From an uncultured virus (IMG/VR IMGVR_UViG_3300011008_000014) (taxonomy: Duplodnaviria > Heunggongvirae > Uroviricota > Caudoviricetes), in IMG/VR virus record IMGVR_UViG_3300011008_000014: a stretch of 64,000 nucleotides of DNA. One strand, given 5' to 3'. Each line of letters opens with the position of its first letter. Position 1 is the first letter of the stretch. The notes below the pieces were generated by a model, which saw nothing but the letters and a program-made list of their open reading frames with translations, made no database searches and had not been told where the DNA came from. This document shows positions 21,293 through 64,000 of the stretch, one piece after another. The position numbers and the translations under genes are program-made.

Positions 21293-21430
21293 TGTTAAAT
21301 AAAGCAAATAACTTTATTTTTCTGCTGAAAAATTTGGTAGTTTCAATTTATTTGCTTACCTTTGCAATACAGAAAACAACAAAACCGTTTAGAACAGAAG
21401 AGCCGACTGACCAAACAGGCACAGAAGATT
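21293..21430 (+). promoter_or_regulatory. Repeated expression unit: AATAAA-N9-TTTATT operator, promoter and pseudoknot leader (copy 1)
   Basis: Same unit recurs at about 24156-24292, 33181-33346, 40035-40157, 48032-48170, 54784-54920 and 63890-64000; leader alone at 21689-21738. Confidence 0.85.
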
Positions 21431-24400
21431 ATGACACATAGCGTACACATGGTGATGATGAGCCACCTTTCAGATGCACAGACAATCATGGTTGCAAACC
21501 CCACACTGGCAAAGACTCACATAAACTTTGTAAAGCGTCTGATTATGAAGTATGACAACACAGACGTTTATGTTGAAGAGGATGAACTGGATGCCATTTG
21601 GGAGGAGGAGTACAACAGACTGAACAAGCCCGAAGAATTGTAAAAGACCCATACAAGGCCGTGGGACTCGTTCTGCGGCCTTTTAATTAAAACCATTTAG
21701 AACTGCCGCCGACAGCTTAAAGACAGGCATTAAAAGCAATGACAGCAAGAGGTTATTTCTTAGATAATAGGGATTTCATCAAGAAAGGCGAATACAAGCC
21801 GACATCTTTGGATGAGCGCAAGAAGAATGCCGATTTCTTGATTACAGCCGTCTATGGCGAAAGATATGAGATACACAGCAACAGGACGAAGCGACCTGTG
21901 GAACTGAAACCCAGCCGTTCTATCAAGCGGATGAACAACTATATCTATATCGTCACTGAAAAGGCTCTTGAAATGCTTAAAAAGGACTATTCGTTTGAAT
22001 GTGATTTTTGAACCATAAGAATATGACAGCAACAGTATTAAAGGCAAACGGCGAATGCTTGCAGGTCAAGCCGAAGAATGGCACGGATTTCAGCCTTGAT
22101 GAAGCAAAGAAGGTTGTAGGCGGGTATATTGAGGTGATTCATCTTAGCAGTACCCAGCTGATGATTGTCAACGAAGAGGGCAGGCTCAGAAATTTGCCCT
22201 TCAACAAGCAAGCATCGCTGATAGCAAACATGGCGCGGAAAGCGGATATGATTGTCGGCGACGTGCTGGTATGTGACATTAAACAGTTCAAGTGATATGA
22301 AACAGACAGATAAAGAAGTTCTCAGCTTATGTAAAGAGTGGTTTGAGGAAATTGCAGACAGATGCAGCAGACTGACAAGTGGCAATGTGTCACATGACAG
22401 CAAAATGATTCGTGGATTAGCGCGTAATTCTGCCGAGTTCGTAAACTCACATCTTAAAGAAGGCTGAGATGGAAAACAATAATATGCACCAACATATCCC
22501 TATAAAGGATAGATATGCTATATTCTGTGAGAAATGTTTTGATGAAGGTATTATGCCGCCATCGTTTGAAGAATATCAAAAAAGACAATAATATGAAGAT
22601 AACAGGCAGAAAGATAATGCAGATTCGCCACCATTGGGAGTTTGAAGAAGTGAAAGGTGCTGCAAAGCAGCGCGGATTTCGCAGTCGGAAGATTGACCGC
22701 CTCAAGGGTATCAAGATGCGGCCATTTTTGAATCGTGTGGTGAACAGAATACTTGACGAAGATGAGTAAAAGACAACAGACCTATAAGGCCAACAAACAG
22801 GCAAAGGTAGGCGAAATGATAAAATGCCCCGTTTGCGGCGATGTGTTCAAGAAACGGCAATACTCGCAGGCGTTTTGCTGTGGCCAGTGTAAAGATACCT
22901 ATTGGAACGCGAAAGGCGACCGTCATTGTGCTGGCTATTATGAGGACTATGATGCAAAGCACCCCGAAAGGATGAAGCGCAGGAGGCTTTATGGAAGTCA
23001 AATTGTGGTATCTGTTGGCGGCGAACTGACTCCAAGGCAGCGTGACGAGATACACGAAAGGTTTTTGGAGAAAAAGCGTGAAATTGAAACTTACGGATAA
23101 AGGAGGTTGAATAATGAATGTTCAAGATGTAATGCTGGGCGATTGGTTGAATATAAGCCATCGCAAGAAAAATGGGATAGTACATAGAATAGACAAGGCA
23201 AACGGTGAAGGAAACGGCTTTGCGGCAGTCATAGATGGCGACTACCATGAAAGCCTGCTTGAGCCTATCGAACTGACCCCCGAAATCTTGAAGCGCAGCG
23301 GATTTGAATTGGAAGATGGATGGTGGTGCTGGCGCAAGCTGGGCGTATCTACAGGCAATCTATATATAGACGTTGCCTTTCGTGATGATGACGTGTCTGT
23401 GTACGACGTGCAAATGATGGGCTATCACAACGCATCAATGAATCACCATCTGAACTATGTGCATGAACTGCAACATGCCATGAGGATATTTGGAATAGAT
23501 TTGGAACTTAAAATAACACAAGACGATTGATTATGGAAGCTGCAATAATAACTGGCAGTAATAATTGCCCTTACTTTGACGAAAACCGCACGATTTGCGA
23601 TGACGGTGAATGTGAATCATGCAAGCATTACGGTGAAATCTTGAAGTGATAGTATGACACGGAAACCAAAATTGATGCAGTTTCTCCGCAAGTTGCAGGA
23701 GATACAGGCAAAGTATATCGACACCGTAGGCATCGAGATTCGCTCAAGGCGATACCTTGATGATGGCGTGTATGCTATAAATGCCAGTTTTATATCCCAA
23801 ACTCGGAAATGTGAAGATACTGACGCAGAGGATAATTCGCTGGTAGTAAATGCGACATTATACAGTTTTTGGACGAATAAGGAAAACAAAAAGGCATTTG
23901 ACGGTTTTGTCAAAGAGGTAAAGGTTGAAAGCCAGTTAGTAAAAGAAGGTAAGGTAATTGAATGATGGAATACGCAAGAGTGGCTGTCGTGCTGGATGAA
24001 CCAGTACAGGCCGATAAGAAAAAGACTGGAGATTGTGATTTCGACTGCACACCGTCTGATATTCAGAAGAGATACGAGTTGAAGTAGTCGGAACATGAGT
24101 ACTTGGATGACCTGTGTTTATTGGCAATCATCGTTTTGTGTGGTTGAAACTGCATTGTTAAATAAACTAAATTGCTTTATTTTCTTTGCAAAAAGTTTGG
24201 TAGTTCTGAAAATAATCACTATCTTTGCAACAGATTTAAGAACAAAACCATTTAGAGCCGCAGCCGACGGTCGAAACACAGGCAGACGAACAATGAAAGC
24301 AATTAAGTTATTTGAAGATGTGCTGGCATCGTGGAGAAACAATGATGTGGCCGACATCGAACTGGCAGAAAAGTATAGCGAAGTGTTCAGAGCCTACAAT

Positions 24401-26953: not shown

Positions 26954-27033
26954 AAAGCGGCGTAACAAGTGGCAGACTGCTAAAGAAAGTATCAAACATC
27001 AAGAATATCACTAAATTAAAATTCAATTTCATT

Positions 27034-27699: not shown

Positions 27700-27738
27700 C
27701 ATTTCACATTCGGCGAGGGCTGTTTCAACAGCCCCGCC
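27535..27738 (+). repeat. DGR variable repeat 1 with IMH-like end and hairpin (27712-27738)
   Basis: Matches 51986-52186 except at positions explicable by template adenines and one 3-nt indel. Confidence 0.88.
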
Positions 27739-33132: not shown

Positions 33133-33346
33133 AACCTATTCCGTTTTACTAATTTTGTGCAAAGATACTACCTTTTTATTGAATAAAGCAATTTAATTTA
33201 TTAAATAATCTTAAAACAAGTGTTTCGGTTGAAAATACTCACGAAAATATTTGGTAGTTCTGAAAATAATCACTATCTTTGCAACAGATTTAAGAACAAA
33301 ACCATTTAGAACAGAAGAGCCGACTGGTCAAACAGGCACAGAGAAT

Positions 33347-36300
33347 ATGGATAAGCAGCAAGTTAAGGCAATAGCCAACGAAATGATGAATCAGTTAGGT
33401 GGTAGCAAGTTTCGCTTCATGGTAGGCGTTAAGATGGCCGTATATGACTGCAAGGGCGGTAATGTTATTCTTTCTATGAATATAGGCAGAAACAAGACCT
33501 CTGCCAACTTCTTCAAGTTGATTTATGACTCGGCAATGGATTCATACGTCATGCAGCTGGTTCGCAGAACTACAAGCCGCAAGACCTTTGAGACCGTCGA
33601 GAAACTGGTCGATGAGCGTAAGGGCGTTTATTGCGACATGGTGCGCAGCACGTTCACTGAAATGACAGGATTATATACCCGCTTGTAATATGGCACAGAC
33701 AAGACCAAACAGGATGCACTACAGGCAGAATAAGGGGATGGGGCGAAATACCCCCCCCCAATTCTGTAAAGTTCGACGTGATGCTGGGTGACAGGTTCGT
33801 GTGTACGATGACGATGGCACTTGGGCTGGAACATTTGAAAGGCTATGACGGCGACAAGCCGATATTTGAAATGCCATTCAGTTCGCTCCTTGAGTATGTA
33901 GAACAGAAAAGGCCGTCGCTGGCTGGTAAGAAATATCATATAGAGTTTGTGACAAAAGAAACGAAAGAGCTATGGCGACAATAGGAATAACCGATGCGGA
34001 ACTTAGGGAGATTGTCAGAAGGAGTCAGTCTGAACGCTACGACTACCCCGACATCTTCAATGATGACTGCGGGCTGGATTTGACGGGATATAATGGCCTG
34101 TTTCATGCTGTGCCTTCATGGGGTCATCGTAAGACCAACACCCTGCGGCGTATAACGCTGGAAATAACGACGTACAGGGGTATTTCTGCAAATGCCATTC
34201 ACTTTTACGGTAAACTGGAGGTGCAGGGCGTTTCGATGGCATACAACAAAGAGACGTATGACTACGACAGGAAAGCAGAATCGGAATGGGAGCGCAAAAA
34301 CCCCAATTCACAATATTTTTATAGGCTGAATCTGATGCGGCCAGTGACACAGGCAGACCTCGATGCAGACAAGAATGCACGATGCCCTGCCGATGTTCAT
34401 TTTGAATGGGCAGAAGTCGGCGATTTGACAGGCCGATGGAACACCATAGACGAACTGGTCGGATTTGCGACAAAGGTAGTCAAGGCTCGTTTCAAGGGCA
34501 AATGGGCTTTCTATGTCAAGAAGGTATGGCAAACAGGGCTTGAACGAATTATAATCTGACAATGGCGAATATAAAGAAACTGGCAAGGGGCGTGGAATAC
34601 TACCCCGACACAGATAGATTGCTTCTGATTATCTGCCCGAAATGCGGGCGCGAGAATTGGGGCGTACAGGTAGCCAGCGGCGTTTGCGCGTGGTGTGGCT
34701 ACAACGGAAGGGAACTTTTAAGCAATGAACAATCAAATAAAGAAAACAATGAGACAGACATTAGATGAGGCCGCAAAGCTGTATGCAGATGCCCATCCGA
34801 CATGCGGACTGGCCGAAACGACATTCAAGGAGGGCGCAATGTGGGAACGTAAGAACAGATGGGTCGATGCTACGAAGGAGCAGCCCGAATCGGATATTGT
34901 GCTGGCGCGTGTCATGCCTAAAGACGAGGTGCGCGTGGTGCAGGTTGTTGACGGACTCGATTTCAACAACGGCACGGAAAGCCGCAAGTTTATCATTGAA
35001 GGCGGCGAGATGGTTACTCACTGGATGGATATACCAACTTTTTGAAATATGAAGCGAAGAATCTATAAATGCGAGGTCATCTTGAATGATGATGGCACTA
35101 TCAAAGTTACCAGCTATGCAAACAGGCTTTTGCATTATGGTGTGCTGGCTGCGCTGAATAAGGCCGTGCATGAAGCAGCCGATGAACTGAACGGGAAAGC
35201 CCCGTGGCGCAAGAAGTACATCAGATTCACCCATGACGGCAAGACCTACCAGCAGACCGAGCGGAAGGGTAAGATGTGCTGCGATGGATGTTGCTTTCGT
35301 AAGGGTAGAGACTGCAAGCACCCTTACTATGGCCAAGGAACGGACTATTCAAAGGGCAGTTGTGACAACATGATATACAGACGTGTGAAATGATGAAGAG
35401 AATCTATATATCGGGCAAAATCAATGGCCTGCCGCCCATGTATTCGCAGATGCTTTTTGAACGTGCAGAAAAGCAGCTGGAGGCACAGGGATATATACCA
35501 GTGAATCCGTGGAAGCTGCCAAAGGACGGCTGCAAGGCATTCGACGATTACATGATGGTTGACTTGGATGAGTTGCGCAAGTGTGATGGCATCTACATGC
35601 TGGCAAACTGGCTTGAAAGCAACGGCGCACATGTAGAATACTATTTCGCAAGGGGCATGGAAGCGGAAGGCAATGATTTTGAAATCCTGTTTGAGCCGTC
35701 GTGTGAAAGCTGCATACACTGTGAAGGTAAGAAATGTAAACTGCGCAACTTTTTATTTGTCGGCAAACTGGATAGCTGTGAGCAACATGAATGTAGAACT
35801 AAATCAAAATAATTATGGTAGAATATGGAAGCAATGAACCCGTAAAGGGGCAGGTAGAAATCGACGGTGCGAAGATTGAGACCTTTGCACAGGAGATAGT
35901 AAGTGCGAATATTATCACGGTGGAAGTCGGCACGACTGGCCATTGTGGTGGTGACAGCGGACATGGTGGCAGAACCTACCTCCGCATCAAGGATGAAGCC
36001 AGTACCGATATGAGGGTAAAGACTGAGGGCTTTTCAGTTGACGAGCAGCTTTATAATGAAGTGGAAATCAACGATGCCAAATATGTTGAAATTGTATTTG
36101 GCGGTGATTGTGAACTTGATACCTTCATTGCAGCACTGGAGTTTGCAGCCGAAACGCTGAAAAAGCAGACTGGAGGCACATACACGATGAGCAACAAGGA
36201 AAAGAAGCAAGACAATTTCAGAAATTATCTGAATGAAGTCGTTAGGCTTTATGCCAAGAATGGCAATCTGAACGGAATGAGCGCGATTCAGAAACGTCAT

Positions 36301-40040: not shown

Positions 40041-40157
40041 ATTTATTTGCTTTATTTTTCTGCAAAAAGTTTGGTAGTTTCAGATATTTTACGTACCTTT
40101 GCATCAACAGAATCATTTAGACCTGCAACCGACAGGATAAAGACTGGTGCAGTGCTT

Positions 40158-40364
40158 ATGTACTATGTATTAAGAAACGAAGAATGGGGATGTATTTGTG
40201 ACTGCCCGACATTTGACAACAGGCAGGATGCAGAAAACGAGGCCGATGGCAAATGCCGGAGGCACAGTGTCGTTGAAACAAACCGTGCAGACCCTTGCAG
40301 ACCGATGAAGCCGATAGACCAATGCAGGCGATGCCCGCGATGGGTGAAGTATAAAGCAAGATAA
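40158..40364 (+). CDS. Small Cys-rich protein behind leader copy 5
   Basis: ATG 9 nt after the leader motif. Confidence 0.6.
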   Translation: MYYVLRNEEWGCICDCPTFDNRQDAENEADGKCRRHSVVETNRADPCRPMKPIDQCRRCPRWVKYKAR

Positions 40365-40494: not shown

Positions 40495-40568
40495 CGCGGG
40501 TTGTTAGCAGTTGGTAGCTTGCCACTTTGACTTGGTGGAGGTCGCTGGTTCGAGCCCAGCACCCGCAA
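40495..40568 (+). tRNA. Initiator-type (fMet-body) tRNA with GAC (Val) anticodon
   Basis: C1xA72 mismatch, G2-C71, C3-G70, A11-U24, A73, variable loop AGGTC, T arm GCTGG-TTCGAGC-CCAGC; anticodon arm CCACT-TTGACTT-GGTGG; promoter TAACTTTG at 40471-40478. Confidence 0.85.
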
Positions 40569-40603
40569 CAATAGAATTAGTAACAATCAAATCGAAAAGA
40601 AAG

Positions 40604-41306: not shown

Positions 41307-41478
41307 TCCCAAAGACCGACGAACAGGCACAGGCCATCACCGTCAACATCTGATGGTGGTGGCCGTTCTGTTTAACGGAAGAGTTAAATAAAGTGAGTAA
41401 CAAGAAAATAACCCGAAAAATATTTGGTAAATCAATTTATTTGCTTTATCTTTGCACAATAAAATAGTAACAAGCGAT

Positions 41479-44724: not shown

Positions 44725-46080
44725 ATGGCAGTTAGGAAGATAGACAGACGTAGGGCTTTACGGCGACGGGTGCGCAAGGGAATAAAGGTGCAGCCCGTCT
44801 ATTACCCTCTCTATCGGAATAACGGCAAGAAAATGATTGTCTTGGTGACTGGTGGGAGAGGTAGCGGCAAGTCGTTCAACGTAGAGACTTTCTTGGAAAG
44901 ACTTACCTTTGAAGCCGTACCAAGCCCCCGTGATGAATCAAAGCTGCTGGCTCATCAGATACTTTGCGCCCGCTATACGATGGTATCTGCCGATATTTCG
45001 GTTATACCCGAATTTTTCGAGAAAATCGAACTGGAGGGTACGCAGAAATACTTCCGTGCCACAAAGAAGGATGTCATCAACAAGCAGACGGGCTCGCATA
45101 TCATGTTCCGTGGCATCAAGACTTCATCGGGCAATCAGACCGCGAAGCTGAAATCAATCCACGGCCTTACGGTGTTTGTCTGTGATGAAGCGGAGGAGTG
45201 GACTTCGTTTGATGACTTTGAGAAGATAATGCTTTCCATCCGTACATTGGGCATTCAGAACATTATCATCATTGTGATGAACCCGACGGACAGCAACCAC
45301 TTCATCTACCAGCACTACATAAAGGACACCCACAGGATAGAATACTTCGACGGTGTGCCTGTTCAGATTTCCACGCATCCCGACGTTCTGCATATCCATA
45401 CCACCTATCTTGACAACAAAGAAAACCTGTCACCGCAATTCATAGAGAATGTGGAACGCATGAAGGAAACAGACCCCGACAGGTATGCCCATGTTGTTAT
45501 GGGGCAGTGGGCTGACGTTGCGGAAGGTGCGGTGTTCAAGAAATGGGGTGTCGTAAACCAGTTCCCGACGGAATGCAAGCATGTGGCCATCGGTATAGAC
45601 TTCGGTTATTCAAACGATGTCACGGCCATTGTGATGTGCGGAATTTGGGATAACAGGCTCTACATGAAAGAACTGTGCTACAGGACGCACATGCTCTCCA
45701 GCGACATCATCAATTTCTTGAAGCCATACAGCGGTCTGTTTGTCTATGCCGATTGTGCAGACCCGCGACTCATTGACGAAATAGCCCTTGGTGGAATCAT
45801 CATATATCCAGTATCGAAGCCGCAAGGCTCTATAGAGGCTGGCTTGGATAAGATGCAGACCTATGAATTGTATGTGACGAAAGACTCATACAACCTGCAA
45901 GAGGAACTGCGGAACTATGTTTGGGATAAGGATAAGGATGACAACTACATCAACGTACCCGTTGACAAGTGGAATCACGCCATCGACGCTGGCCGCTACT
46001 ATACGTTAGGTAAGCTGCTGGGTAAGATAGTGAAGAAAATCAAGGTGACAAAGAAGAATAGTAAGATTGCAATCAAATAA
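44725..46080 (+). CDS. Terminase large subunit (PBSX family)
   Basis: GGRGSGKS, DEAEE, MNP, IGIDFGYSND, NHAIDAGRY. Confidence 0.95.
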   Translation: MAVRKIDRRRALRRRVRKGIKVQPVYYPLYRNNGKKMIVLVTGGRGSGKSFNVETFLERLTFEAVPSPRDESKLLAHQILCARYTMVSADISVIPEFFEKIELEGTQKYFRATKKDVINKQTGSHIMFRGIKTSSGNQTAKLKSIHGLTVFVCDEAEEWTSFDDFEKIMLSIRTLGIQNIIIIVMNPTDSNHFIYQHYIKDTHRIEYFDGVPVQISTHPDVLHIHTTYLDNKENLSPQFIENVERMKETDPDRYAHVVMGQWADVAEGAVFKKWGVVNQFPTECKHVAIGIDFGYSNDVTAIVMCGIWDNRLYMKELCYRTHMLSSDIINFLKPYSGLFVYADCADPRLIDEIALGGIIIYPVSKPQGSIEAGLDKMQTYELYVTKDSYNLQEELRNYVWDKDKDDNYINVPVDKWNHAIDAGRYYTLGKLLGKIVKKIKVTKKNSKIAIK

Positions 46081-46091: not shown

Positions 46092-47510
46092 ATGCCAATA
46101 TTGGACGATTATCAGTTACAGGTGCTGACGCAGTTTCGCGGAAAGACACTCACCAGTGGAGGTGTCATCCGTGAACTGTACCAGTACATTCTTGGGAATG
46201 ACGTGTCTCGCGCAATTTCATTGATGCAAGACCACGAATTAGCCGTGACGAATGCCATCCGTGAATACAACTGGCAGACGCACGATGTGATGAACCGCCC
46301 CAACAAGTACAGGGAAGGGCAAGAGCCTTATCAGACTGAGAAGTTGCCGCGAACACGGCAAAAGTACATCAACGAGATGGAACTCTTCTTCCTGTTGGCC
46401 AATCCTCCCGTGTGGGAAAGAAAGGATGGGACGGACAGGGCTTTTCAGTTGTATAAGGACATGCTGGACGATGACCGCTTTCATGCCAAGTGGAGGCAGT
46501 GCAAGCGGCTTGCTGGCTCGGAACTTGAATCAGCCCTCGTCTATCACCTGTATCAAGAGAACGGCGAACTGCGATACCATAATTTCGTGGCCGCATATTC
46601 CAAGGGCTACAGGCTGCATCCACTGATTGACCAGTATGAGAACATGGTGGCTTTCGCCTTGGGATATACCTTGAAGGAGAACGGCAACCATATCCAGCAC
46701 TATGACATTTGGACTGTTGACTACTATTTCCAGTGCCAAAGGAGTGCCGTAGGCTGGCAGGTCATGGTCTATGACAACATCCTCGGCAAGATTCCAGTAA
46801 TCTACTTCAACCAAAACAAGGCATGGGATGGTGCTGAACGCCGAATCAGTCGTGAGGAGATGAACGATTCCAAACATGCAGACAACAACAACTATTTCGC
46901 CGACCCGCTGGCAGAGGCAACAGCCGATGTGCTCCAGTACCTAAAGAACGGCGAGACCGTTGGCCGCATGATTCAGCTGACAGGCGAAAAGTCGAAATTC
47001 GGATATGTCAACCCGCCTTCCGACAGCGAATCGCGCAGGGATGAACACGATAACCTGCATGATTCCATCCTGTTCGATACCTTCACCCCCGATTTCTCGT
47101 TTGAAAAGATGAAGGGGCTGGGTACGATTTCGGGCGAGGCACTCCGAAGGGCATTGGCACTTGGATATATCAAGCGCGACAACATCAAGGAAACATACGA
47201 GCCGCTGCTCGACCGTGACAAGAATCTAAGGCTTGTGCTGCTGAAGCTGCTGCATCCCGAAATGGCTACGGAAATCGACGCATTGAAGCTGAAAGGCACA
47301 TTCGCAGAGCCGTTTGCCGAGGATAAGCAAAGCCAGTGGAACACTATCGGTACTCTTTATGCGCGTGGCCTTGTGTCGCTTGAAACTGCTGTTACGATGC
47401 TGGCCATCACCGATGCTCCCGAAAAGGAGGTTGAGAAGATACTGGCAGATGCGGAACGCAAGGCGGCACTTACTAAGCCCGAAGATGAACTGACTGAACC
47501 AACAGAATAA
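46092..47510 (+). CDS. Portal protein (SPP1-like)
   Basis: Position and size; GKIPVIY, SGEALR, VSLETAV. Confidence 0.88.
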   Translation: MPILDDYQLQVLTQFRGKTLTSGGVIRELYQYILGNDVSRAISLMQDHELAVTNAIREYNWQTHDVMNRPNKYREGQEPYQTEKLPRTRQKYINEMELFFLLANPPVWERKDGTDRAFQLYKDMLDDDRFHAKWRQCKRLAGSELESALVYHLYQENGELRYHNFVAAYSKGYRLHPLIDQYENMVAFALGYTLKENGNHIQHYDIWTVDYYFQCQRSAVGWQVMVYDNILGKIPVIYFNQNKAWDGAERRISREEMNDSKHADNNNYFADPLAEATADVLQYLKNGETVGRMIQLTGEKSKFGYVNPPSDSESRRDEHDNLHDSILFDTFTPDFSFEKMKGLGTISGEALRRALALGYIKRDNIKETYEPLLDRDKNLRLVLLKLLHPEMATEIDALKLKGTFAEPFAEDKQSQWNTIGTLYARGLVSLETAVTMLAITDAPEKEVEKILADAERKAALTKPEDELTEPTE

Positions 47511-47926: not shown

Positions 47927-48170
47927 GCTTCTTGCTTTCTTGTTTTTCATAATCGGAGGGTGCATGGTGAACAGAAAAAGGCACTGTGCGCCCTTTTATA
48001 TATATTATAAGGTATAGTTATTATCTGTTAGAGTTAAAATAAACTAAATTGCTTTATTTTCTTTCAAAATATTTGGCAGAATGAATTTATTTGCTTATCT
48101 TTGCATCAGTTATTACAGACAAAACCATTTAGAGCAGATGAGCCGACTGTAGAAAACTGGCATTTGGATT

Positions 48171-48821
48171 ATGAATACATATTATAAGTTTGTACCAAAC
48201 GTATTTTTGGCAAAGTGTTCAGAACAGCATGAGAAGGGCGAGGTTATCGACGTAACGACGAAGTACGGCAAGGATAACGAAAGCATCGTGCATAATCTGA
48301 TATTTACCCGTGACGGCTTCTATTTCTATTCTATCACCCGTGCAGACGGCTACAACATGCAGGAGCGGGCAAGGCGCAAGGCAGAACGCTATGAACAGGC
48401 AGCGGCCAATGCCGACAGGCGCAGCACCGAATATTTCAACAAGTCACAGAAGGATGCAGACTTTCTTTCGCTTGGCGAGCCTATCAAGGTGGGTCATCAC
48501 AGCGAACGCAGACACCGCAAGATGATTGATGACGCTTGGCGCAACACTGGCAAGATGGCTGCTGAAATGGATAAAGCGGAAGCCTACCGTGACAAGGCAG
48601 AGGGCTGGTCAAGGCATACCGATGACATCAACCTGTCAATGCCCGAAAGCATAGACTACTACGCTAAGAAGCTGGAGGAGGCCACTGAATACCATCAAGG
48701 CGTTAAGAGCGGCAAGTACCCGCGTGAACATGCCTATACGCTGACCTACGCGAAGAAAGCCGTCAACGAGGCACAGAAGAATTATGACCTTGCAAAGAGA
48801 TTGTGGGGCGATAACAGATAA
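48171..48821 (+). CDS. DUF3560-like protein
   Basis: LGEPIKVGHHSERRHR motif. Confidence 0.8.
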   Translation: MNTYYKFVPNVFLAKCSEQHEKGEVIDVTTKYGKDNESIVHNLIFTRDGFYFYSITRADGYNMQERARRKAERYEQAAANADRRSTEYFNKSQKDADFLSLGEPIKVGHHSERRHRKMIDDAWRNTGKMAAEMDKAEAYRDKAEGWSRHTDDINLSMPESIDYYAKKLEEATEYHQGVKSGKYPREHAYTLTYAKKAVNEAQKNYDLAKRLWGDNR

Positions 48822-49246: not shown

Positions 49247-50191
49247 ATGAAAGGTAACGGCAGAATGATTTCAAGACAGGATGCGGCAGAGATACTACGC
49301 ACAGACCCTCAGACGGTATCAAACTGGATTGAGAAGGGCGTATTGCGCGGAAAGATGATTGGCCGCATTCAGATGGTGGATGGTAATACCATCGAGGCAC
49401 TGTTTGACACGCTGAAAGACTTGGATGAGTCGAAGAAGATAATCGGTCGGTTGCAGCAGGAGAATTACGAAAAGGCATGTGAGTTAAGAAAGACCCGTGA
49501 CGAATGGCTGTTAGACCTTGCAATGGTCAACGGACTGGAAAAGCCGACAAAACTGCTGCGGATGATAACGTCTATGATAGACAGCGTTAGCGATGACATC
49601 ATGGCAGACCGTGAGCGAAACATACTGAAATACTACTTGGACGGTTCGGAATTTGAGGCCATCGGTGACGAGTACGGGCTGACCCGCGAAAGGGTAAGGC
49701 AGATAATCGAGAAGGCCATGCGCAAGCTGGGAAGCCTTGAGCCCTATGGTGATGTGCTGAACAGGTGCAGTGAACTTGAAAACGAGAACTTGATGCTGAA
49801 AGCCACGTTAAAGCGGCAGGAGGCAGAACTTGATGCGTTGCGCGGCAAGAAGGATGAAGCAGAGGATAGCACGTTGTCAGAACAGGACAGGCAAGTGCTG
49901 GAACTGCTGAACACAAGGCTCGTTGACATGAATCTGACCGTTAGGGCGTTGAACTGCCTAAAGGCGGCTGACTTGGAGACTTTCGCCGACTTAGTGAAGT
50001 GCCAAAAGACAGACCTTCTGAAATTTCGGAATTTCGGCAGGAAGTCATTGGGTGAACTTGATGACCTGCTGGAGAATGAAAGTGAAAGGACGGGCGTTAG
50101 GTTTTCGTTCGGAATGGACGTGTCGCCCTTCTATGAGCGTTATACGAAGAGTCTAATCAATAAAGGTGTGATAGATGCTGAAACTGAATGA
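49247..50191 (+). CDS. Transcription factor: N-terminal HTH, sigma70 region 4 and RNA polymerase alpha-CTD-like domain
   Basis: DAAEIL....[38 protein letters not shown].......LV......[14 protein letters not shown]. Confidence 0.85.
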
Positions 50192-52186: not shown

Positions 52187-54920
52187 ATCAACTGTATGGA
52201 AGATTATCAGAGTTTTACTACACGGGAGCAGGAGGCAAGGCTGATTGAATTGGGCATAAAGCCCGAAACGGCAGACATGAACCGCATCCCGAAGGTCGGC
52301 GGCTACAGGATTACGTCGGAAAAGTCGGTGAACGCTACGCCTTGCTGGTCACTGGCTGGATTGCTGAATATATTGCCACGACAGATAAAGGACAAAGACG
52401 ATTGCCTCGTCTATGACCGCTTTGTCTGTGGCGACGTGGTGGATTACCGCTGCATCGACTATGAACTGTGGGGTGACTGTTTCAGTGACGGAACGCTGTT
52501 TGAGAATATCATCGCCTGTATTGCTGATTTCATCAAGAAGGGCTATATCAATAAAAAGTATCTGAAGGATGGAAAGAAAGATTGACGGCACGTTTCTGTA
52601 TGACCTTGGTATGCTTGGCAACAGGATTACGGAAGCAAAGAAGAATCTTGGCATTGTCGAGCAACTGACGGCGACTACCGATGTGCGGAAGCAGGCATTC
52701 AAGCAGAAGAATCCGCACATAACCAATCCCGCCAGCATTGACAGGATGTTTGATGACGAAATCAGAAAGTACCTTGATTTTGCAAAGACAAGCTACATGG
52801 AGGCTGAATCATCTGCAATAACTATCGGCGTGGAACTGCCGAAGCTGGATTTTGAAGGCTATCTGAAAGACTGCAAGGCAGCACCGCAAAGGGGATTCAA
52901 TCACGTCTGACTATGAAATGTTCGGGATGCAGATTCTATGAGAAGAGCAAGGTGTATGGAAACCATTGCGTATGCTTGGGTGCAAAGCCCTGTGATATGG
53001 ATTATCGTACAAAGAAGATTAAGAAACTGAAATCAAAAAGAAACGAGAAATGGAACAGAAGAAAATCAAATTGACAGGCCGCGACCTACACGCTGGCGAT
53101 GTCGTGCTTTCATACGGTGAACTGCACATTATCGGAACAATCGGACACACAGACGCATTCGATGATAGGATGGTGCATGTCATCCACCTACAGGATGCCG
53201 AGCCAGTGCCTTTGAATGACTTGGAACTGATGCAGCGCGTCGGTGCGAAGGTCAACGGCAATAATGTAGTGATTGGCGGCAATGGCGTGTCAGTGCAGTA
53301 TTACGTTGCTGGTGACGTTGTGAACATGACTGTCTGCTATGACAAGCGGCAGCATACGGAAGTGATGGAAGTCGGCAGAAACGCCTATCTGCATGTTGTT
53401 CAGCAGATGGCATGGAAGTACGGTCACGGTGAACTGAAAATAAAGATTAAGAACCAAAAGAAACAGAAGAAAGATGAAGGAACTGGCAATTAGAGACCTC
53501 CACATCGGGGATGTCGTAAGACTGAAAGCTGGTGTGCCTGTCAGCGGAAGCCGTATCGGGCGCGTCATGGAACTTTCGGATGGTAGCGTGTATATCGACG
53601 AGAAAGGCTACTATCAGCCTAATCAGCTGGAGGGCATTCATCTTGCGGAAGCACAGTTGCTTGTCAAGATGGGATTTGAGCATGACCAAACACAGAACTG
53701 CTTGAACTATGGAGGCCGTGTGCGTGTGTTCTACGACATGGCGCATAATGTTGACAGTGTGTTTGGGAAGAATGAGCGCGGCGAATGGAAGAGCCTGCAA
53801 TGTTTCTTTAAGGTCGAGTACCTGCATGAACTCCAGCAGATTTGCCACAAGCTGAACGGAATGGCTTTCGACATCAAACTGAAACGGTAGCATGATATAT
53901 AATCCAATGTTCGGCAAAAGGCAGGATTGCATCGACAGGAAAGAGAAGCATGGCAAGTGCAGGTATGACAGCAACAAGCCCACTGGCCGATTCTGCGACT
54001 ACTGGAAGAAGCGCATCAAGGATGCCGACTGTAAGAAGTGCAAGAAATGTGGCAAGATATGAAGCATTTCAGTCTGAATACTCTGCGGAAGCTGCAACGC
54101 CCTACGACTGAGACATCCGCGTATCGGAAAACGCGGATGATTCTCGGTTGCGGGCTGACTGTTGCCTACTGTTCATGGTCGGCAGCGGAGGATTTCCGTC
54201 GGCTGGTTGCCGCTGGCGTGAAACAGGCCAATGCGATGTCGTTTCAGCAGAATATGCTTGCAAGGGGATTCCACGACTTGCATCAAGAAGTGCTGACATC
54301 CGATGAAATGTGTGACAAGTACATCGACCTTCATGCGAATTTCCGAAAAATCGTCGAAGCCATCCAGTCGTATGGGATATTCCCCTTTGAACTGAAAGAC
54401 TATGAGGATTTCTGCAAGTCCGTCTATGACGGTTTCAGACTGGTAAGATACAAGCAGGGTGCAGCAGGTCATTATCCAGTTTACTCCAGTGCCGTGCTGA
54501 ACTATTCCGAAGGGTCGATTTCCGAGACTGAACTTGTGAATAACTTTGTGGTAGTCGATTTCGTTCATGGCAGAAAACGGCCTATCCTACCCTGTGAATT
54601 TCGGCAGTTTCTTTGTGATTTGTCGCTGGCAGTTGATGAAATGTGGCTGATATACGGTATTAGAACTGGTGCAAATGAAACATTATAACTTTATTCAATG
54701 ACAATAAAGAAACGAATAAAAAGCGGCTGAAAACCACATTATTTATATAATAAGGTGTATATAAGTACAAAAACCGCTTGAAATGTTAAATAAAGCAAAT
54801 AACTTTATTTTTCTTGCAAAAAGTTTTGGTAGTTCAAAAATTATTCGTAACTTTGCCAACAGAAAACAACAACAACCATTTAGAACAGCCGCCGACTGGT
54901 AAAACACAGGCACAGAGATT

Positions 54921-55841
54921 ATGGCAACAACGAAGTCACTTTCAGAGCAGGTAAACGAAGTAAAGAACAGCCGCATGGGTAAGGCCGCAAAGGTTCAAGA
55001 ACTGATTAAGCTGGGCATCACCCGTGACGAGATTACTATCATTCTTGGCAATGATGCTGGTGCATACATCCCTGCCACATCAAAGAAGTTTGTGGTCACT
55101 TTCGGAGTCGAAATGGAGACCTACAATGTCAACCGTGAGCAGATTCAGCAGATAGCCTTACAGAATGGCCTCCCTATTGAATATCAAGACTACAACCACC
55201 ATGACAGCCACAGCGTTTTCAAGTTCGTGACTGACGGTTCAATAGAAAACGCGAGAGGTTATCGTGACGATACTTGCATAGAGTGTGTAACACCTGTATT
55301 GAAGGGCAGAAATGGCTTGGCATCGCTGAAAAAGGCTTGTGCAACACTTAATGCCGCTGGTGCAAAGGTAAACAAGACCACAGGCTTGCACGTTCATATC
55401 GGTGCAAAGGACTTATCGGGTGAGCAGTATGCCAGCGTTTTTCAGAACTATCAGATGATGGAGTTGCTTATCGACAGCTTCATGGCAGAAAGCCGCCGTG
55501 CAAACAATGGATTCTACTGCAAGTCACTGAGAGGTAAGTATCTTTCAAGTTGTCATACACAGGAGGCCGTGAAAATCGCCCTTGGATGCAGCAGATACTT
55601 TAAAGTAAATCCCTGTAGCTGGTCACGTCATCAGACCATCGAGTTTCGCCAGCATCAAGGCAGCACCGATTTTGAAAAGATTTCAAACTGGGTGTCATTC
55701 TGTGCAAAGCTGGTTGTTTGGTCACGCGATAACCGTCTGACGAGCCCGATTTCAAGCATCGACGATATACCTTTCTTGACAAATGACGAAAAGGCATTTT
55801 TCAAGCGTCGCCAGCGGGCTTTTGCACGTCAGAGCAGATAA
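54921..55841 (+). CDS. Putative amidoligase (COOH-NH2 ligase type 2)
   Basis: TFGVEME, VTDGSI, ECVTPVL, TGLHVHIG, RY.KVN, TIEFRQH. Confidence 0.88.
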   Translation: MATTKSLSEQVNEVKNSRMGKAAKVQELIKLGITRDEITIILGNDAGAYIPATSKKFVVTFGVEMETYNVNREQIQQIALQNGLPIEYQDYNHHDSHSVFKFVTDGSIENARGYRDDTCIECVTPVLKGRNGLASLKKACATLNAAGAKVNKTTGLHVHIGAKDLSGEQYASVFQNYQMMELLIDSFMAESRRANNGFYCKSLRGKYLSSCHTQEAVKIALGCSRYFKVNPCSWSRHQTIEFRQHQGSTDFEKISNWVSFCAKLVVWSRDNRLTSPISSIDDIPFLTNDEKAFFKRRQRAFARQSR

Positions 55842-57778: not shown

Positions 57779-57812
57779 TCCGTGAGTGTTTAACAATCAA
57801 TCAAGTAACAAA

Positions 57813-58568: not shown

Positions 58569-58571
58569 ACT

Positions 58572-59654
58572 ATGCAACAGTCACTTTATTTCCAATACAC
58601 TGAGAAGTATTTTCCGCTGTTGGTTCTTTCCATCGTGGAAAAGCTGAACGAGAAGCGTCAGCAGTCACTTCCTTATCTGTATAAGGACATGCTTACCCCG
58701 CAGTACTCGTCTGATGGCATGTGGGCTTCCGTGCTTGCACAGTACACCCGCGTTGCCGCTGACGTTGTGGCCTTGGATGCCGAACTGCCGTTGAAGAGCC
58801 TTGACACCATCGAGGTCGCCCACGGTGAGATTCCCAAGCTGGGTATGAAGCTGTACCTTACGGAAAAGCAGATGAAGGACATCGAGAACATGATTGCAAA
58901 ACAGATGCCCATCCAGCAGATTATCGGCAAGATTTTCGTGAATCTGCGCCGCTGCATCGAGGGTATCTTCGAGCGTCTTGAGGACATGTTCCTTTCTGAA
59001 CTCTCTACTGGTGTCGGCCTCAGTTCGCGCAATGCCGGAACAGGCGTTCGCGTCACTGTCGGCTACCTTGACGCTAACCAGTTCGTTGCCAAGGCTAAGA
59101 CATGGGCAGACAATGCCGATGCGCTGGCCGTCGATGACATCGAGCAGATTTTCGACAAGGCACTGGAAGACCAAAACACCATTACCGATGTGTTCACCGA
59201 CGATTTCGCGCTCCGCGCCCTGTATAAGAACACGCAGTTCAAGCAGCTGTTCGCGTTCAATCAGAACTTTGTCGGCAGCAACATCCCGAACCTTGACTTC
59301 GACCAGCTTTCCGCTGTGTTCCTGCGCAAGTGGGGCGTGACCCTGCACCGCGTCAACCGTTCCATCAAGACCGAGGTCAACGGTATCAAGAAGAATCACA
59401 AGCCTTGGGCAGAGGGTCGCCTTGTGTTCACTTGTGATGCAGTAGTGGGTGATTTGGTATATACCAACACCGCCGAGCAGTCGCATCCCGTCGCTGGTGT
59501 GACGTATTCCACTGTCGAGGGCTACATCCTTTGCAGCCAGTATTCCAAGAATGACCCCCTGCGCGAGTTCACCTCGTCACAGGCAATGGCCGTTCCCGTA
59601 GTTCACAACGTAGACCAAATCTACACCCTTGACCCCAAGACGGTAGAGGGCTAA
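58572..59654 (+). CDS. Major capsid protein
   Basis: 360 aa, position in the head module, strong codon bias. Confidence 0.85.
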   Translation: MQQSLYFQYTEKYFPLLVLSIVEKLNEKRQQSLPYLYKDMLTPQYSSDGMWASVLAQYTRVAADVVALDAELPLKSLDTIEVAHGEIPKLGMKLYLTEKQMKDIENMIAKQMPIQQIIGKIFVNLRRCIEGIFERLEDMFLSELSTGVGLSSRNAGTGVRVTVGYLDANQFVAKAKTWADNADALAVDDIEQIFDKALEDQNTITDVFTDDFALRALYKNTQFKQLFAFNQNFVGSNIPNLDFDQLSAVFLRKWGVTLHRVNRSIKTEVNGIKKNHKPWAEGRLVFTCDAVVGDLVYTNTAEQSHPVAGVTYSTVEGYILCSQYSKNDPLREFTSSQAMAVPVVHNVDQIYTLDPKTVEG

Positions 59655-59674
59655 TCTGACGAAAGGAACTGGAT

Positions 59675-60163
59675 ATGGCAAAGATTAAGGTTATCACCCG
59701 TTTCCGCAACAAGTTCAACATCACTGAGTTCTTCAACGTCGGCGATGTGCTTGACTTCGACGCGGAACGTGCGAAGGATGTCATCAGCCGTGGCCTTGCC
59801 GTGGCTGTAGAAGAGAATCCAGCCGATGATGCCGAAGCTAAGGCCAAGGCCGAAGCGGAAGCCGCTGCAAAGGCAGAGGCCGAAGCCAAGGCGAAAGCCG
59901 AGGCAGAAGCAGCCAAGGCCGCTGAAAAGAAGGCCAAGGCCATCGAGAAGGCAGAGACGAAGGTTAAGAACTTGACGGAAAAGGCCGAAGCAGCCAAGGG
60001 CAAGGCCGATGAAGCTGCAAAGGCTGTCGGTGAAGCCGCTGACGAAGCAGCCAAGGCCAAGGCACAGAAAGCCGCTGACAAGGCAGCTGACGCGCTGAAA
60101 AAGGCCGAGGAAGCCCTCGCCAATGCCAAGAAGGAACTCGACGGACTGAAAGGTGACGAATAG
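59675..60163 (+). CDS. Ala/Lys/Glu-rich head-associated protein
   Basis: Short N-terminal domain plus AEAKAKAE low-complexity repeats. Confidence 0.75.
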   Translation: MAKIKVITRFRNKFNITEFFNVGDVLDFDAERAKDVISRGLAVAVEENPADDAEAKAKAEAEAAAKAEAEAKAKAEAEAAKAAEKKAKAIEKAETKVKNLTEKAEAAKGKADEAAKAVGEAADEAAKAKAQKAADKAADALKKAEEALANAKKELDGLKGDE

Positions 60164-60174
60164 CATCTGACGCT

Positions 60175-61532: not shown

Positions 61533-61534
61533 TT

Positions 61535-61951
61535 ATGGTATATGTAGGCATTAGAAGTGTGACGATTGGCAGCAACACGTTTACCAACGTCCACAATGAA
61601 ACGTGGAACTTCCACGAGGATGAGCCCGAGCGCGTTGAACTAATCAACCAAGTGACGGGCAAGCCCTATTATGTCGTACTGAAGCAGGGGTACAAGAAAA
61701 TCATCGAGTTCTCTGTCGGTGACTATACCGCTGCACAGCTGGCCGCATTGCAGGGTACTGACGGCAATCCTGTTTTCGCACAGGTTTCCGCAGTCTTGAA
61801 GAACGGTGAAATCGCTGCTTACCAAGCAATGATTATCGCCACCCGCGAGACGCAGGACACTGCCATTCTGATGAAGGTGCAGTGTATCGAGTGCGACTAC
61901 ACACCCGATGTTGTCAACGGTGGCAGCGGAAGCGGAAGTCAAGCAGGCTAA
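61535..61951 (+). CDS. Probable tail tube protein
   Basis: Position before a terminator and the chaperone genes; beta-rich. Confidence 0.65.
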   Translation: MVYVGIRSVTIGSNTFTNVHNETWNFHEDEPERVELINQVTGKPYYVVLKQGYKKIIEFSVGDYTAAQLAALQGTDGNPVFAQVSAVLKNGEIAAYQAMIIATRETQDTAILMKVQCIECDYTPDVVNGGSGSGSQAG

Positions 61952-61974
61952 AACCGTGTATCAATAACCAACAA

Positions 61975-62013
61975 TGGGGAGGATGTGCTGTTATCCCGCA
62001 TCCTCCCCTGTTT
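61975..62013 (+). terminator. Intrinsic terminator
   Basis: GGGGAGGATG / CATCCTCCCC followed by TGTTT. Confidence 0.75.
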
Positions 62014-62027
62014 AATTAAATAGTAGT

Positions 62028-62704
62028 ATGGAAGAAGAGAACATTCAGATACCCAATGCGGCCAAGACCGTAAGCAGCGCGCTTCTCGGAATGGATATAA
62101 AGGTTGTGCTGGTGAACGATAAAAGGTATGTGTTGAAGCCGCCGACGATAGATAAGTTAGCTGGAGGCGGCTACTGGCTGTCAACATTCGACCGCGAAGG
62201 AAAGAACACCATCGACGAAATCATCATGGCAATGACCGACATCGTGCCAGTCTGCAAGGCTTTGTCGTGGATGATACAGGGTGACGAGTCGCTGGAGGAG
62301 GAGTTGCGCAAGGGAACACTGGAAGAGAATCTTGTTGCCCTGTGTACTGCCTTTAGCTTGGTGAATACCAAAAATTTTCAGATGCTATCAGCTTTAGCAA
62401 GGAACGTCGGAAGACTGATAGCAAAACCAAAACGACAACAGTAGGCAATGAGTGTCTGCTGGGTCAGATAGCGACGTTCATGGAGAACCTGCACCTGTCA
62501 TACGAAGATGTGGTGTATAGGATTCCGTACAGGAACTTGCAGATTATGATGAAGGATAAACTGCATACCATCTATGGCGAGGTTGACCACGAAGTCGATA
62601 GTCTTGATGAATACTACAGGCTCATGGGGCGTGAGAACCCGTTCAAGAAGCCGTCGGAAGGTGCGGATGATTCACAATCCGAAATGGTGAAAACAAGCGA
62701 ATAA
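62028..62704 (+). CDS. Tail assembly chaperone G (62028-62444) and G-T fusion via -1 frameshift (to 62704)
   Basis: In-frame slippery heptamer A AAT TTT at 62372-62378; the -1 frame is open from 62357 to 62704. Confidence 0.75.
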
Positions 62705-62856
62705 ATTTACATTGTGCCTCAGAAATAAAGCGGTATATTTGCATCAGAAATGAATGATGTGCTGCCGCACGGCACGGAATGACATAGGAAAAGTTTTAGG
62801 GGTGGATTCGGGAAGTGCGGTCTCGTTTCTGCCCCGCTTTCGTAAAAAGAAGTAGT

Positions 62857-63729
62857 ATGGAAGGAAAGAATGAAATTGTGTTGTCAAAAGACAGCAGTAG
62901 CGATGAACTAAGGCAGTATTTCAGCAAAATACTGGAACTGGCACGAAGTGGTAAGGATTATCCCGTGAATCTTGATGAGGTTTGGATGCTTGTGTACTCG
63001 GAGCGTGGAAAGGCAGTACGCGCATTGAAGGAGAATTTCATTGAAGGTGAAGATTATACCAGCTTTGCCCAAAATGGCAAAACTGCTACAGGTGGCTACA
63101 AATACACGGTTTACATGCTTTCCACGTCATGCCTTGAATACTTTATCGCCCGTAAGATTCGGGCAATATTTGAGGTGTACCGTACTGTGTTCCATAAGGT
63201 AGCCAGCCGTGAACTATCACGCAAAGAACTTGCTCAAATGGTGCTGGAGGCCGAGGAAGAAAAGGAACGTCTGATGCTGGAGAACAAACAGCAGAATGAA
63301 ACCATCCAGCAGCAGAATATTCAGATTGCGGCCATGTCCGAGGAGATTGTGGAAATGAAGCAAAAGACCGACTATCTTGAAATCATCCTGTCAAGTGTCG
63401 GCTCTGTCACAACGACTCAGATAGCACAGGACTATGGAATGTCGGCAGTTGCATTCAATAAGCAACTGGAGGCGATGCGTATTCAGCGCAAGGTAAACGG
63501 CCAGTGGATTCTCTATGCCCCATACATTTCCGAAGGGTTCATTCTTAGCAAGACAATCAACATTACCCGCTCCGATGGCAGACCCGATACAGTCATGCAC
63601 ACCGAATGGCGACAGAAAGGCCGTCTGTTCCTTTACAATAAATTGAAGGAGATTGGCATCCTGCCTTTGATAGAAAGGATGGCAATTCAGCAAGTTCAGA
63701 ACAGTCAAGAAACAATCGACCAACAATGA
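62857..63729 (+). CDS. Phage antirepressor (AntA-like N-terminus, KilA-C/ANT C-terminus)
   Basis: YPVNLDEVW.LVY, TTTQIAQDYGMSA..FN..L...IQRKVNGQWILY, TEW.QKGRLFLY. Confidence 0.9.
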   Translation: MEGKNEIVLSKDSSSDELRQYFSKILELARSGKDYPVNLDEVWMLVYSERGKAVRALKENFIEGEDYTSFAQNGKTATGGYKYTVYMLSTSCLEYFIARKIRAIFEVYRTVFHKVASRELSRKELAQMVLEAEEEKERLMLENKQQNETIQQQNIQIAAMSEEIVEMKQKTDYLEIILSSVGSVTTTQIAQDYGMSAVAFNKQLEAMRIQRKVNGQWILYAPYISEGFILSKTINITRSDGRPDTVMHTEWRQKGRLFLYNKLKEIGILPLIERMAIQQVQNSQETIDQQ

Positions 63730-64000
63730 AGGAGCAGGGTTAATAATTTGTGTTCCAACGACTTGCAGACGCTTAAAAATGGCAAATAACAAGGTAGCAA
63801 CATCAAAACAATAAAGAAACAACAGCGAATCCCCACACCTTATTATATAGGGTGAGGGGTAGTTGAAAACCAGTTTACTTTGGCCTATCTGTTAAAATAA
63901 ACTAAATGACTTTATTTTCTTTGCAAAATGTTTGGCGGTTTCAATTTATTTGCTTACCTTTGCAGTATCAAAACCATTTAGAACAGACGAGCCGACTGAA

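What the first reader, a model, noticed from the sequence alone, without database searches (positions are those of the whole stretch)
21381..64000. Eight copies of a covarying H-type pseudoknot leader 9-10 nt upstream of start codons
Seen at about 21381, 21689, 24244, 33298, 40111, 48121, 54874 and 63970 (truncated by the window). Consensus: AA(C/T)C(A/G)TTTAGA-N-[CNG]-N2-4-[RCC]-GA-[CNG]-A-rich loop ending ACW-[GGY]-N9-10-ATG. Stem 1 covaries (CAG/CTG in five copies, CTG/CAG in two, CCG/CGG in one) and stem 2 covaries (GCC/GGC, but ACC/GGT at 40128/40146). The stems interleave as a pseudoknot. Spacing to the ATG in the seven complete copies is 10, 10, 9, 9, 9, 9, 9 nt. Seven copies follow a promoter; one (21689) follows a terminator-like hairpin. 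Inference: a cis-acting RNA element that works as a translation enhancer replacing SD, a regulator-binding site, or a 5' stabiliser for the first genes of accessory operons.
Basis: seen in the sequence. Interest (0 to 1): 0.82.

Follow-up and report, generated by a model that had tools for sequence, protein, structure and literature searches.

The report
Phage RNA knot before start codons
Several gut-type Bacteroidales phages put a tiny knotted RNA fold exactly 9-10 bases in front of the start codons of many unrelated accessory genes, most likely to control how host ribosomes, which do not use the usual ribosome-binding signal, load onto these messages; the role is untested.

Summary
Observation confirmed: 8 copies, 0 expected in 100 shuffles. 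The window is a Bacteroidales siphophage. The same 33-nt H-type pseudoknot occurs in at least three phage groups that share few proteins. In 66 distinct copies all 396 stem cells pair; 4 of 6 pairs show double changes. It precedes about 30 unrelated proteins. Its distance to the ATG is fixed (9-10 nt in 60 of 67; SD 0.9 per gene cluster), whereas its distance from the promoter varies (SD 6). It also follows a hairpin, an upstream stop codon or a hammerhead ribozyme, so it is tied to the start codon. No Rfam model matches it, but it has the architecture of the catalogued, function-unknown Bacteroidota leader DUF805b (same GCC/GGC second stem). It differs in its loops, a 5' UUUAGA and a closer position that covers the A(-12/-13) initiation determinants. 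Best reading: a cis element that recruits the host 30S/bS1 without a Shine-Dalgarno (0.45). Main rival: a repressor operator (0.25). Nothing functional was tested. Verdict: real, an uncatalogued variant of a known kind.

The parts
21388..21420 (+). Pseudoknot leader copy 1 (S1 21395-97/21407-09, S2 21402-04/21418-20); ATG at 21431, 70-aa unknown protein
   Evidence: 55.0 bits
21696..21728 (+). Copy 2, no promoter, follows a hairpin; ATG at 21739, 90-aa unknown protein
24251..24283 (+). Copy 3 (S1 CCG/CGG); ATG at 24293, DUF7698 protein
33305..33337 (+). Copy 4; ATG at 33347, 113-aa protein (phrog_9437)
40116..40148 (+). Copy 5 (S2 ACC/GGT); ATG at 40158, 68-aa ORF, then tRNA-Val at 40495-40569
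48128..48161 (+). Copy 6; ATG at 48171, DUF3560 protein; unit inserted after the portal gene
54879..54911 (+). Copy 7; ATG at 54921, amidoligase (PF12224) followed by a GATase gene
   Evidence: 65.8 bits
63977..64000 (+). Copy 8, cut by the window end after stem 1
21333..21364 (+). Bacteroidota-type promoter (-33 TTTG, -7 TAnnTTTG) before copy 1
24196..24227 (+). Promoter before copy 3
33250..33281 (+). Promoter before copy 4
40070..40101 (+). Promoter before copy 5
48072..48103 (+). Promoter before copy 6
54825..54855 (+). Promoter before copy 7
63931..63962 (+). Promoter before copy 8
21655..21684 (+). GC hairpin with a short T run before copy 2 (terminator-like; the T run is weak in orthologues)

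Best explanation
The element is a compact H-type mRNA pseudoknot: stem 1 of 3-5 bp, loop 1 of 2 or 4 nt, stem 2 of 3-5 bp, a GA linker, and an A-rich loop 3 ending AC(A/U). It acts on translation initiation of the gene just downstream. Bacteroidia ribosomes cannot use a Shine-Dalgarno (SD) sequence, so the phage puts at the head of its accessory and counter-defence units a structured docking element for the host 30S, most likely through bS1 and/or the platform. It ends 9-10 nt before AUG, just outside the mRNA channel, and takes the place of the usual A(-12/-13) signal. Shown: sequence, covariation, fixed spacing, independence from promoter and gene identity. Inferred: folding in vivo, the binding partner, and a positive sign of the effect.
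For: Both stems covary: 396 of 396 cells paired in 66 distinct copies, 4 of 6 pairs with double changes, 0 of 500 shuffles reach the paired percentage or the covariation score, slid controls 9-39% paired. At the stem-1 middle pair, left free in the search pattern, 13 of 13 viral and 45 of 45 family metagenome matches pair, against 6 of 16 non-family rows. Orthologous amidoligase and WYL_2 genes in distant phage G007 keep a pseudoknot at the same place with entirely different, longer stems. Spacer: 9 nt x38, 10 x22, 8 x1, 11 x2, 12 x4 of 67. Per gene cluster the spacer SD is 0.9 nt (30 clusters) against 6.0 nt for promoter-to-stem distance (21 clusters), with spacer identity only 0.36. The element also occurs after a hairpin, after an upstream stop codon inside its own TTTAGA (7 rows, one of them crossing a promoter), and directly after a type I hammerhead (L235). 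The 104 other window ORFs follow the Bacteroidia rule (A at -13 in 0.67, at -12 in 0.55); the 7 motif genes have G at -12 in 7 of 7 and no SD-like tetramer. Literature passages: S1 binds H-type pseudoknots and a pseudoknot can be required for translation (PMC7708055; loop sizes L1 1-3, L3 7-10 for SELEX, tmRNA and preQ1, supplement Fig. S1); ACA occurs in the loops of the S1 SELEX pseudoknots (PMC3879156); Bacteroidia sequester the anti-SD and use A at -3, -6, -12, -13 (PMC9976891). No shared phage RNA-binding protein was found to serve as cognate, which points to a host partner.
Against: No functional data. PMC9976891 lists reduced structure as a Bacteroidia initiation determinant, so a GC stem at -10 to -12 could equally inhibit. 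The capsid, portal and terminase genes, which need high output, lack it. In three copies the ORF after it is only 7-15 codons (L209, L359, L396). Stem stacking is weak (-4.2 to -5.7 and -5.0 to -6.7 kcal/mol), and RNAalifold keeps only stem 2, so a partner or tertiary contacts are needed; the SELEX S1 ligand has longer stems. Not found in host chromosomes: 0 of 151 Bacteroidota genomes at E<=0.1, only the best 39 candidates scored in each. In 151 genomes of one family 11 had weak hits and none showed both stems. Copies are related by descent and by exchange between leaders, so cell counts overstate independent events; at least 7 pair-type switches are needed. Most copies were selected with patterns or descriptors that fix part of the stems.
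Confidence: 0.45

Rival explanations
1. Translational operator: a phage or host RNA-binding protein binds or stabilises the weak pseudoknot next to the initiation site and shuts a regulon of early or accessory genes off together (as S15 does on rpsO, or gp32 on T4 gene 32).
For: Weak 3-bp stems suit induced folding. The knot covers the A(-12/-13) determinants. It marks one gene class: SAM-lyase-like, WYL_2, DUF3560, DUF3846, amidoligase, not structural genes. One target is an Sm-like WYL_2 protein. S15 traps the rpsO pseudoknot on the platform (PMC3858243, passages).
Against: WYL_2 was found in 3 of 5 records and not in complete G006, which has 7 copies. Proteins shared between the phage groups gave no RNA-binding family. 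Stem sequences vary freely. The T4 gene 32 knot lies 67 nt upstream and controls only its own gene (PMC3014915, passages).
Confidence: 0.25
2. mRNA stabiliser: the knot, alone or with a bound protein, blocks 5'-end-dependent decay or RNase E scanning just outside the ribosome footprint.
For: It lies near 5' ends made by promoters and, once, by a hammerhead that would leave a 5'-OH end 7 nt before TTTAGA.
Against: It sits 14-37 nt from the -7 box rather than at the very 5' end. A roadblock would not need 9-10-nt spacing. RNase J (TIGR00649) was over cut-off in 0 of 151 Bacteroidota genomes and in 8 of 14 controls.
Confidence: 0.12
3. Small-ligand riboswitch of the preQ1-I size class, folding on binding a signal of infection or lysogeny.
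For: Small H-type knot with conserved loop nucleotides (A at -3 of loop 3 in 66 of 67) and marginal stability.
Against: No Rfam riboswitch match. About 30 unrelated downstream proteins with no metabolic theme. No SD to sequester and no visible alternative structure.
Confidence: 0.07
4. Transcription antiterminator of the HK022 put or lambda nut kind (UUUAGA as a boxA-like part, the knot as boxB-like). Family features are recalled, not from a call.
For: Mostly found just downstream of phage promoters (50 of 67 had a TAnnTTTG match).
Against: Also placed immediately after terminator-like hairpins and inside operons. Spacing is locked to the ATG, not to the promoter.
Confidence: 0.05
5. Only a duplicated promoter-leader cassette or DNA recombination hotspot; the stems are incidental.
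For: Copies within a genome are similar, and gene units are visibly inserted between leaders (L137, L189).
Against: No broken stem in 66 distinct copies despite 7 extra pair types. Fully different stems in orthologous positions. The promoter occurs without the knot (41423, 20704) and the knot without the promoter (21696).
Confidence: 0.04

Closest known systems
DUF805b RNA (Rfam RF02914, clan CL00115 with DUF805 RF03081)
   Same: Small Bacteroidota leader: a short stem 1 whose loop holds GCC complementary to a 3' GGC(A), a 4-nt loop 1 ending in A, a linker starting GA, an A-rich loop 3 of about 10 nt, and a start codon downstream (consensus and 5 alignments). That Rfam draws this second pairing as a pseudoknot, that the motif comes from the Weinberg 2017 survey and that its function is unknown are recalled or taken from earlier scan notes; the main text of PMC5737381 does not name it.
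   Different: Linker GA (57 of 67) instead of GAAAA; loop 3 ends ACA/ACU instead of GAGUA; stem 1 usually 3 bp; conserved 5' UUUAGA; 9-10 nt to ATG instead of 14-21 nt (5 of 6 DUF805b loci). Found here in phages only, while DUF805b was over cut-off in 2 of 2 bacterial genomes and 0 of 3 of these phages. Neither model detects the other.
S1-binding H-type pseudoknots (SELEX ligand, tmRNA pk1, rpsO, tisB standby element)
   Same: H-type topology, short loop 1, A/C-rich loop 3 of 7-10 nt, ACA in the loop (PMC7708055 passages and supplement Fig. S1; PMC3879156 passage).
   Different: Those are from E. coli, have longer stems and work with an SD; the tisB knot is about 100 nt from the RBS. S1 binding was not tested here.
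T4/T2 gene 32 pseudoknot and E. coli rpsO (S15) translational operators
   Same: Pseudoknot in an mRNA leader acting on initiation.
   Different: One cognate gene each; the gene 32 knot is 67 nt upstream; the rpsO knot includes coding sequence. Here about 11 copies per genome precede unrelated genes at a fixed 9-10 nt.

Membership tests
DUF805b RNA (RF02914) | Score at or above the gathering threshold (35.6 bits) | tested here: not met
   No hit at any copy at E<=5 in the window, at E<=10 in a 401-nt stretch with two copies, or in G002, G006, G007 (best 13.9 bits, elsewhere).
DUF805b RNA (RF02914) | Hairpin loop GCC complementary to a 3' GGC | tested here: met
   GCC/GGC in 60 of 66 aligned copies, other pairs in the rest; DUF805b consensus.
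DUF805b RNA (RF02914) | GAAAA linker and GAGUA before the 3' GGC | tested here: not met
   Linker is 2 nt (GA 57, AA 6, other 4 of 67); loop 3 ends with A at -3 in 66 of 67 and C at -2 in 59 of 67.
DUF805b RNA (RF02914) | Upstream of start codons of unrelated Bacteroidota genes | tested here: met
   30-32 protein clusters; spacing differs, 9-10 against 14-21 nt.
DUF805 RNA (RF03081) | Score at or above 51.1 bits | tested here: not met
   0 of 5 phage records; best 16.8 bits, not at a copy.
S1-binding pseudoknot enhancers | H-type topology with short loop 1 and A/C-rich loop 3 of 7-10 nt | tested here: met
   Loop 1 of 2 or 4 nt; loop 3 of 8-10 nt in 64 of 67; compare.
S1-binding pseudoknot enhancers | Binds S1/30S and is needed for initiation | not testable with these tools
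   Needs binding and toeprint assays.
Autogenous translational operators (T4 gene 32, rpsO) | Lies before the gene of its own RNA-binding repressor, present wherever the operator is | tested here: not met
   Many unrelated genes; WYL_2 candidate in 3 of 5 records, not in complete G006.
Known riboswitches (preQ1-I size class) | Rfam match and a metabolically coherent gene set | tested here: not met
Exoribonuclease-resistant RNAs (xrRNA; features recalled) | Host 5'-to-3' exoribonuclease to block | tested here: inconclusive
   RNase J over cut-off in 0 of 151 sampled Bacteroidota genomes; the actual host was not identified.

The most novel reading that the evidence does not exclude
The knot is a natural structural ribosome-binding site: a minimal, IRES-like module that docks on bS1 or the anti-SD-less platform of Bacteroidota 30S subunits and sets the start codon by a 9-10-nt ruler. 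This family, DUF805b and the second GGTGAG-type knot would then be versions of one phylum-specific, SD-independent initiation device that phages use to express counter-defence genes first.
Probability: 0.3. Interest if true: 0.85.

Novelty: new variant of a known kind. Interest (0 to 1): 0.6.

Why it matters
How Bacteroidota ribosomes choose start codons without a Shine-Dalgarno sequence is only partly explained (upstream adenines, low structure). A 33-nt fold with natural compensatory variants and a fixed distance to AUG is a ready-made probe: break, restore and shift it in a reporter, then solve it on the ribosome. A positive result would give a function to the orphan DUF805b class and a portable expression part for Bacteroides and Prevotella. 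A negative sign would reveal a phage-wide translational regulon.

Tried and rejected
A core-only pattern was swamped by a coding sequence of unrelated phages: of 119 loci a handful were new members (L236, L244, L276), and the rest of the collection was not reached. 2) The strict pattern in one genome per prokaryote species gave 8 matches, none with an ATG 9-11 nt downstream and none in Bacteroidales. 3) A pattern for the long-stem G007 variant found 0. 4) Prophages with related capsids in 4 of 401 genomes carried no convincing copy. A Porphyromonas prophage and two other records with the amidoligase had none. The G010 hit (27.7 bits) lacks the canonical stem 1 and looks like coding sequence; dropped. 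One coding-region hit at window 12406 was dropped before the 67-copy counts. 5) Extension of stem 1 by a fourth pair (22 of 67 paired, shuffle mean 16) and of stem 2 (18 of 67, mean 14.6) is optional, not conserved. 6) RNA runs: only Logan contigs with small shares; three of eight X1 pieces begin in or at a leader (21393, 24251, 33346). Contigs cannot show starts, strand or level, and repeats break them, so this is not used as support. 7) A candidate ninth copy at 3626 lacks the 5' motif and precedes a 6-codon ORF; rejected. 8) RF02913 was queried by mistake for DUF805; it is pemK, no hit. 9) Literature: nine answered searches listed no description of this motif; literal-sequence and DUF805 searches gave nothing relevant. 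Papers seen as passages: PMC5737381 (its supplement, which holds most motifs, was unreadable), PMC10690425 (supplement files 1, 2 and 4 not searched, no hit in the rest), bioRxiv 10.64898/2026.09.22.753630 (unrelated), PMC7708055, PMC3858243, PMC3879156, PMC9976891, PMC3014915. The motif could be listed in the unseen supplements. Ringquist 1995 was seen only as cited by others. R-scape was not available.
Full report
Context. The window is part of a tailed phage: terminase at 44725, portal at 46092, major capsid at 58572, recombination and methylase genes, a CI-like repressor at 495-1433 and an antirepressor at 62815. The host is inferred to be Bacteroidales from TTTG...TAnnTTTG promoters (consensus recalled) and from adenine peaks at -13 and -12 before start codons. 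No whole genome is held. Two close relatives of 116 and 119 kb (G001, G002; capsid 95% identical) stand in; neither gave a tyrosine integrase over cut-off.

Observation. All eight copies, stems and spacers are as described. The core pattern matches 8 times against 0 in 100 shuffles. Promoter and knot are separable: 41423 and 20704 have the promoter without the knot, and 21696 has the knot without the promoter.

Family. The strict pattern gave 13 viral loci, 50 metagenome loci of which 42 (45 matches) are family members, and 8 chance matches in species genomes. The middle pair of stem 1 was left free in that pattern. It is complementary in 13 of 13 and 45 of 45 family matches and in 6 of 16 other rows; many rows are the same contigs filed twice. 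Whole-record scans gave 11 copies each in G001 and G002, 5 in G003, 3 in G008, 7 in G006 and 4 in G007. Groups A (window, G001, G002) and B (G003, G006, G008) share only 1-11 BLASTP hits per pair, against about 180-400 within group A. A model built from 66 copies found 44 sites at E<0.01 in 543 kb; the next two hits are real variants and background stays under 19 bits.

Structure. On alignment A1 (66 distinct copies) 396 of 396 cells pair. Pair types: stem 1 CG63/GC3, AU26/UA22/CG11/GC7, GC66; stem 2 GC63/AU2/UA1, CG63/GC3, CG66. Shuffles reaching the observed value: 0 of 500 for cells paired and covariation score, 2 of 500 for pairs with double changes, 76 of 500 for further pair types. Slid registers pair 9-39%. 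The set is related and was partly selected on stems, so the safer number is at least 7 independent pair switches with no mismatch seen. A scan that allowed two broken pairs returned 68 distinct hits: 67 fully paired and one coding-region hit, dropped. The strongest evidence is orthology. The amidoligase and WYL_2 genes of distant phage G007 keep a pseudoknot 8-9 nt before ATG with different, longer stems (GGCC/GGCC with GCGC/GCGC; AACC/GGTT with a 6-bp stem holding one mismatch), and a third G007 gene has two 5-bp stems. Against: stacking is only -4.2 to -5.7 and -5.0 to -6.7 kcal/mol, and RNAalifold, which cannot draw pseudoknots, keeps stem 2 alone.

What it is tied to. The spacer is 9 or 10 nt in 60 of 67 copies. 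By downstream protein cluster, spacer SD is 0.9 nt (30 clusters) and promoter-to-stem SD is 6.0 nt (21 clusters); spacers are only 36% identical. The knot also follows hairpins, upstream genes whose stop codon is the TAG inside TTTAGA, and in L235 a type I hammerhead (27.4 bits, E 0.013, below the gathering score). Downstream proteins form 32 clusters among 73, mostly small unknowns, plus amidoligase, DUF3560, DUF7698, WYL_2, DUF3846, Kyano_Gp96 and a SAM-lyase-like protein just under cut-off: an accessory and counter-defence set, not virion genes. Three copies precede ORFs of only 7-15 codons. The 104 other window ORFs have A at -13 (0.67) and -12 (0.55); the seven motif genes have stem-2 G at -12 and no SD-like tetramer.

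Mechanism. Bacteroidia ribosomes sequester the anti-SD and rely on A at -3, -6, -12 and -13 and on low structure (PMC9976891, passages). S1 binds H-type pseudoknots, and in tisB one is required for translation (PMC7708055, passages and supplement figure). ACA occurs in the loops of the S1 SELEX knots (PMC3879156, passage). The rpsO knot docks on the platform and can be trapped there by S15 (PMC3858243, passages). A knot that ends at the channel exit and displaces the normal determinant must interact with initiation in one direction or the other. I favour recruitment (0.45): it heads genes a phage wants made at once, it persists across phages with no shared RNA-binding protein found (WYL_2 in 3 of 5 records; other shared proteins without such a family), and a chromosomal cousin exists. 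Repression (0.25) stays open because structure normally hinders initiation in this phylum. Stabiliser (0.12; RNase J over cut-off in 0 of 151 genomes), riboswitch (0.07), antiterminator (0.05) and neutral cassette (0.04) fit less well.

Comparison with known families. Rfam 15 does not match any copy. An earlier scan note pointed to DUF805b. Its consensus shares the GCC/GGC second stem, a 4-nt loop 1, a linker starting GA and an A-rich loop 3. It differs in the GAAAA linker, the GAGUA end, the lack of UUUAGA and a 14-21-nt spacer (5 of 6 loci). Neither model finds the other. So this works like DUF805b in layout but fails membership. It was not found in 151 sampled Bacteroidota genomes at E<=0.1 (model validated on phage records), and 11 weak hits in 151 genomes of one family lacked the stems. 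No paper in nine searches described it; two key supplements could not be read in full.

A second knot. A related human-faecal phage record (MT835576, capsid 57% identical) has before its amidoligase an intermediate form (GGTG/CACC, AGA loop, GA linker, 10-nt spacer). It also has a near-invariant GGTGAGACACACC type, seen in four more such records and two bacterial genomes, often 7-11 nt before a start codon; its stem 2 is weaker. Rfam has no match. A generic knot scan over 7574 candidate starts in 16 records peaked at spacers 8-10 (38 of 70 hits, registers counted separately, known copies included).

Verdict. Real, strongly covarying, uncatalogued, and a new variant of the small Bacteroidota leader-pseudoknot kind. 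Function is inferred, not shown. Interest 0.6; 0.85 if it proves to be a structural ribosome-binding site.

Noticed in passing
L442 (MT835576) 20795 and 14873 minus; L453-L456; L446; L448: Second uncatalogued leader knot, GGTGAGACACACC then an A-rich loop ending AC-TG, multi-copy in human-faecal Bacteroidales phage records and in prophage-like regions of two genomes, usually after a promoter and often 7-11 nt before a start codon; no Rfam match.
   Followed up: partly
L235:873-926 minus: Type I hammerhead ribozyme directly 5' of a pseudoknot copy; cleavage would create the leader's 5' end.
   Followed up: partly
L187, L203, L230, L357 intergenic regions: A repeated GC-rich hairpin with a GGATCG core precedes several small genes in group B phages, sometimes before the knot; no Rfam match.
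   Followed up: no
window 21290-21365, 33170-33280, 41400-41455, 63900-63962: A repeated TTATTTGCTT / AATAAAGCAA element lies upstream of and inside the motif-class promoters; a possible operator for the HTH proteins at 20755 or 32824.
   Followed up: no
window 3575-3780: Stretch between tRNA-Ser and tRNA-Glu, conserved in G001 and G002, with pseudoknot-like pairing at 3626-3660; possibly another non-coding RNA.
   Followed up: no
window 15059-15181: tRNA-like element with a 50-nt insertion, scored by Rfam (46.8 bits) but not by ARAGORN; the tRNA-Val at 40495 is called by ARAGORN only.
   Followed up: no
window 49247-50191: Phage protein with HTH, sigma-70 region 4 and RNA polymerase alpha-CTD domains, in a unit headed by the knot.
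   Followed up: no
L203:2401-2754 minus: SAM-lyase-like protein (PF23780, 27 bits, cut-off 28), first gene of a knot-led cluster next to an integrase in group B phages.
   Followed up: no
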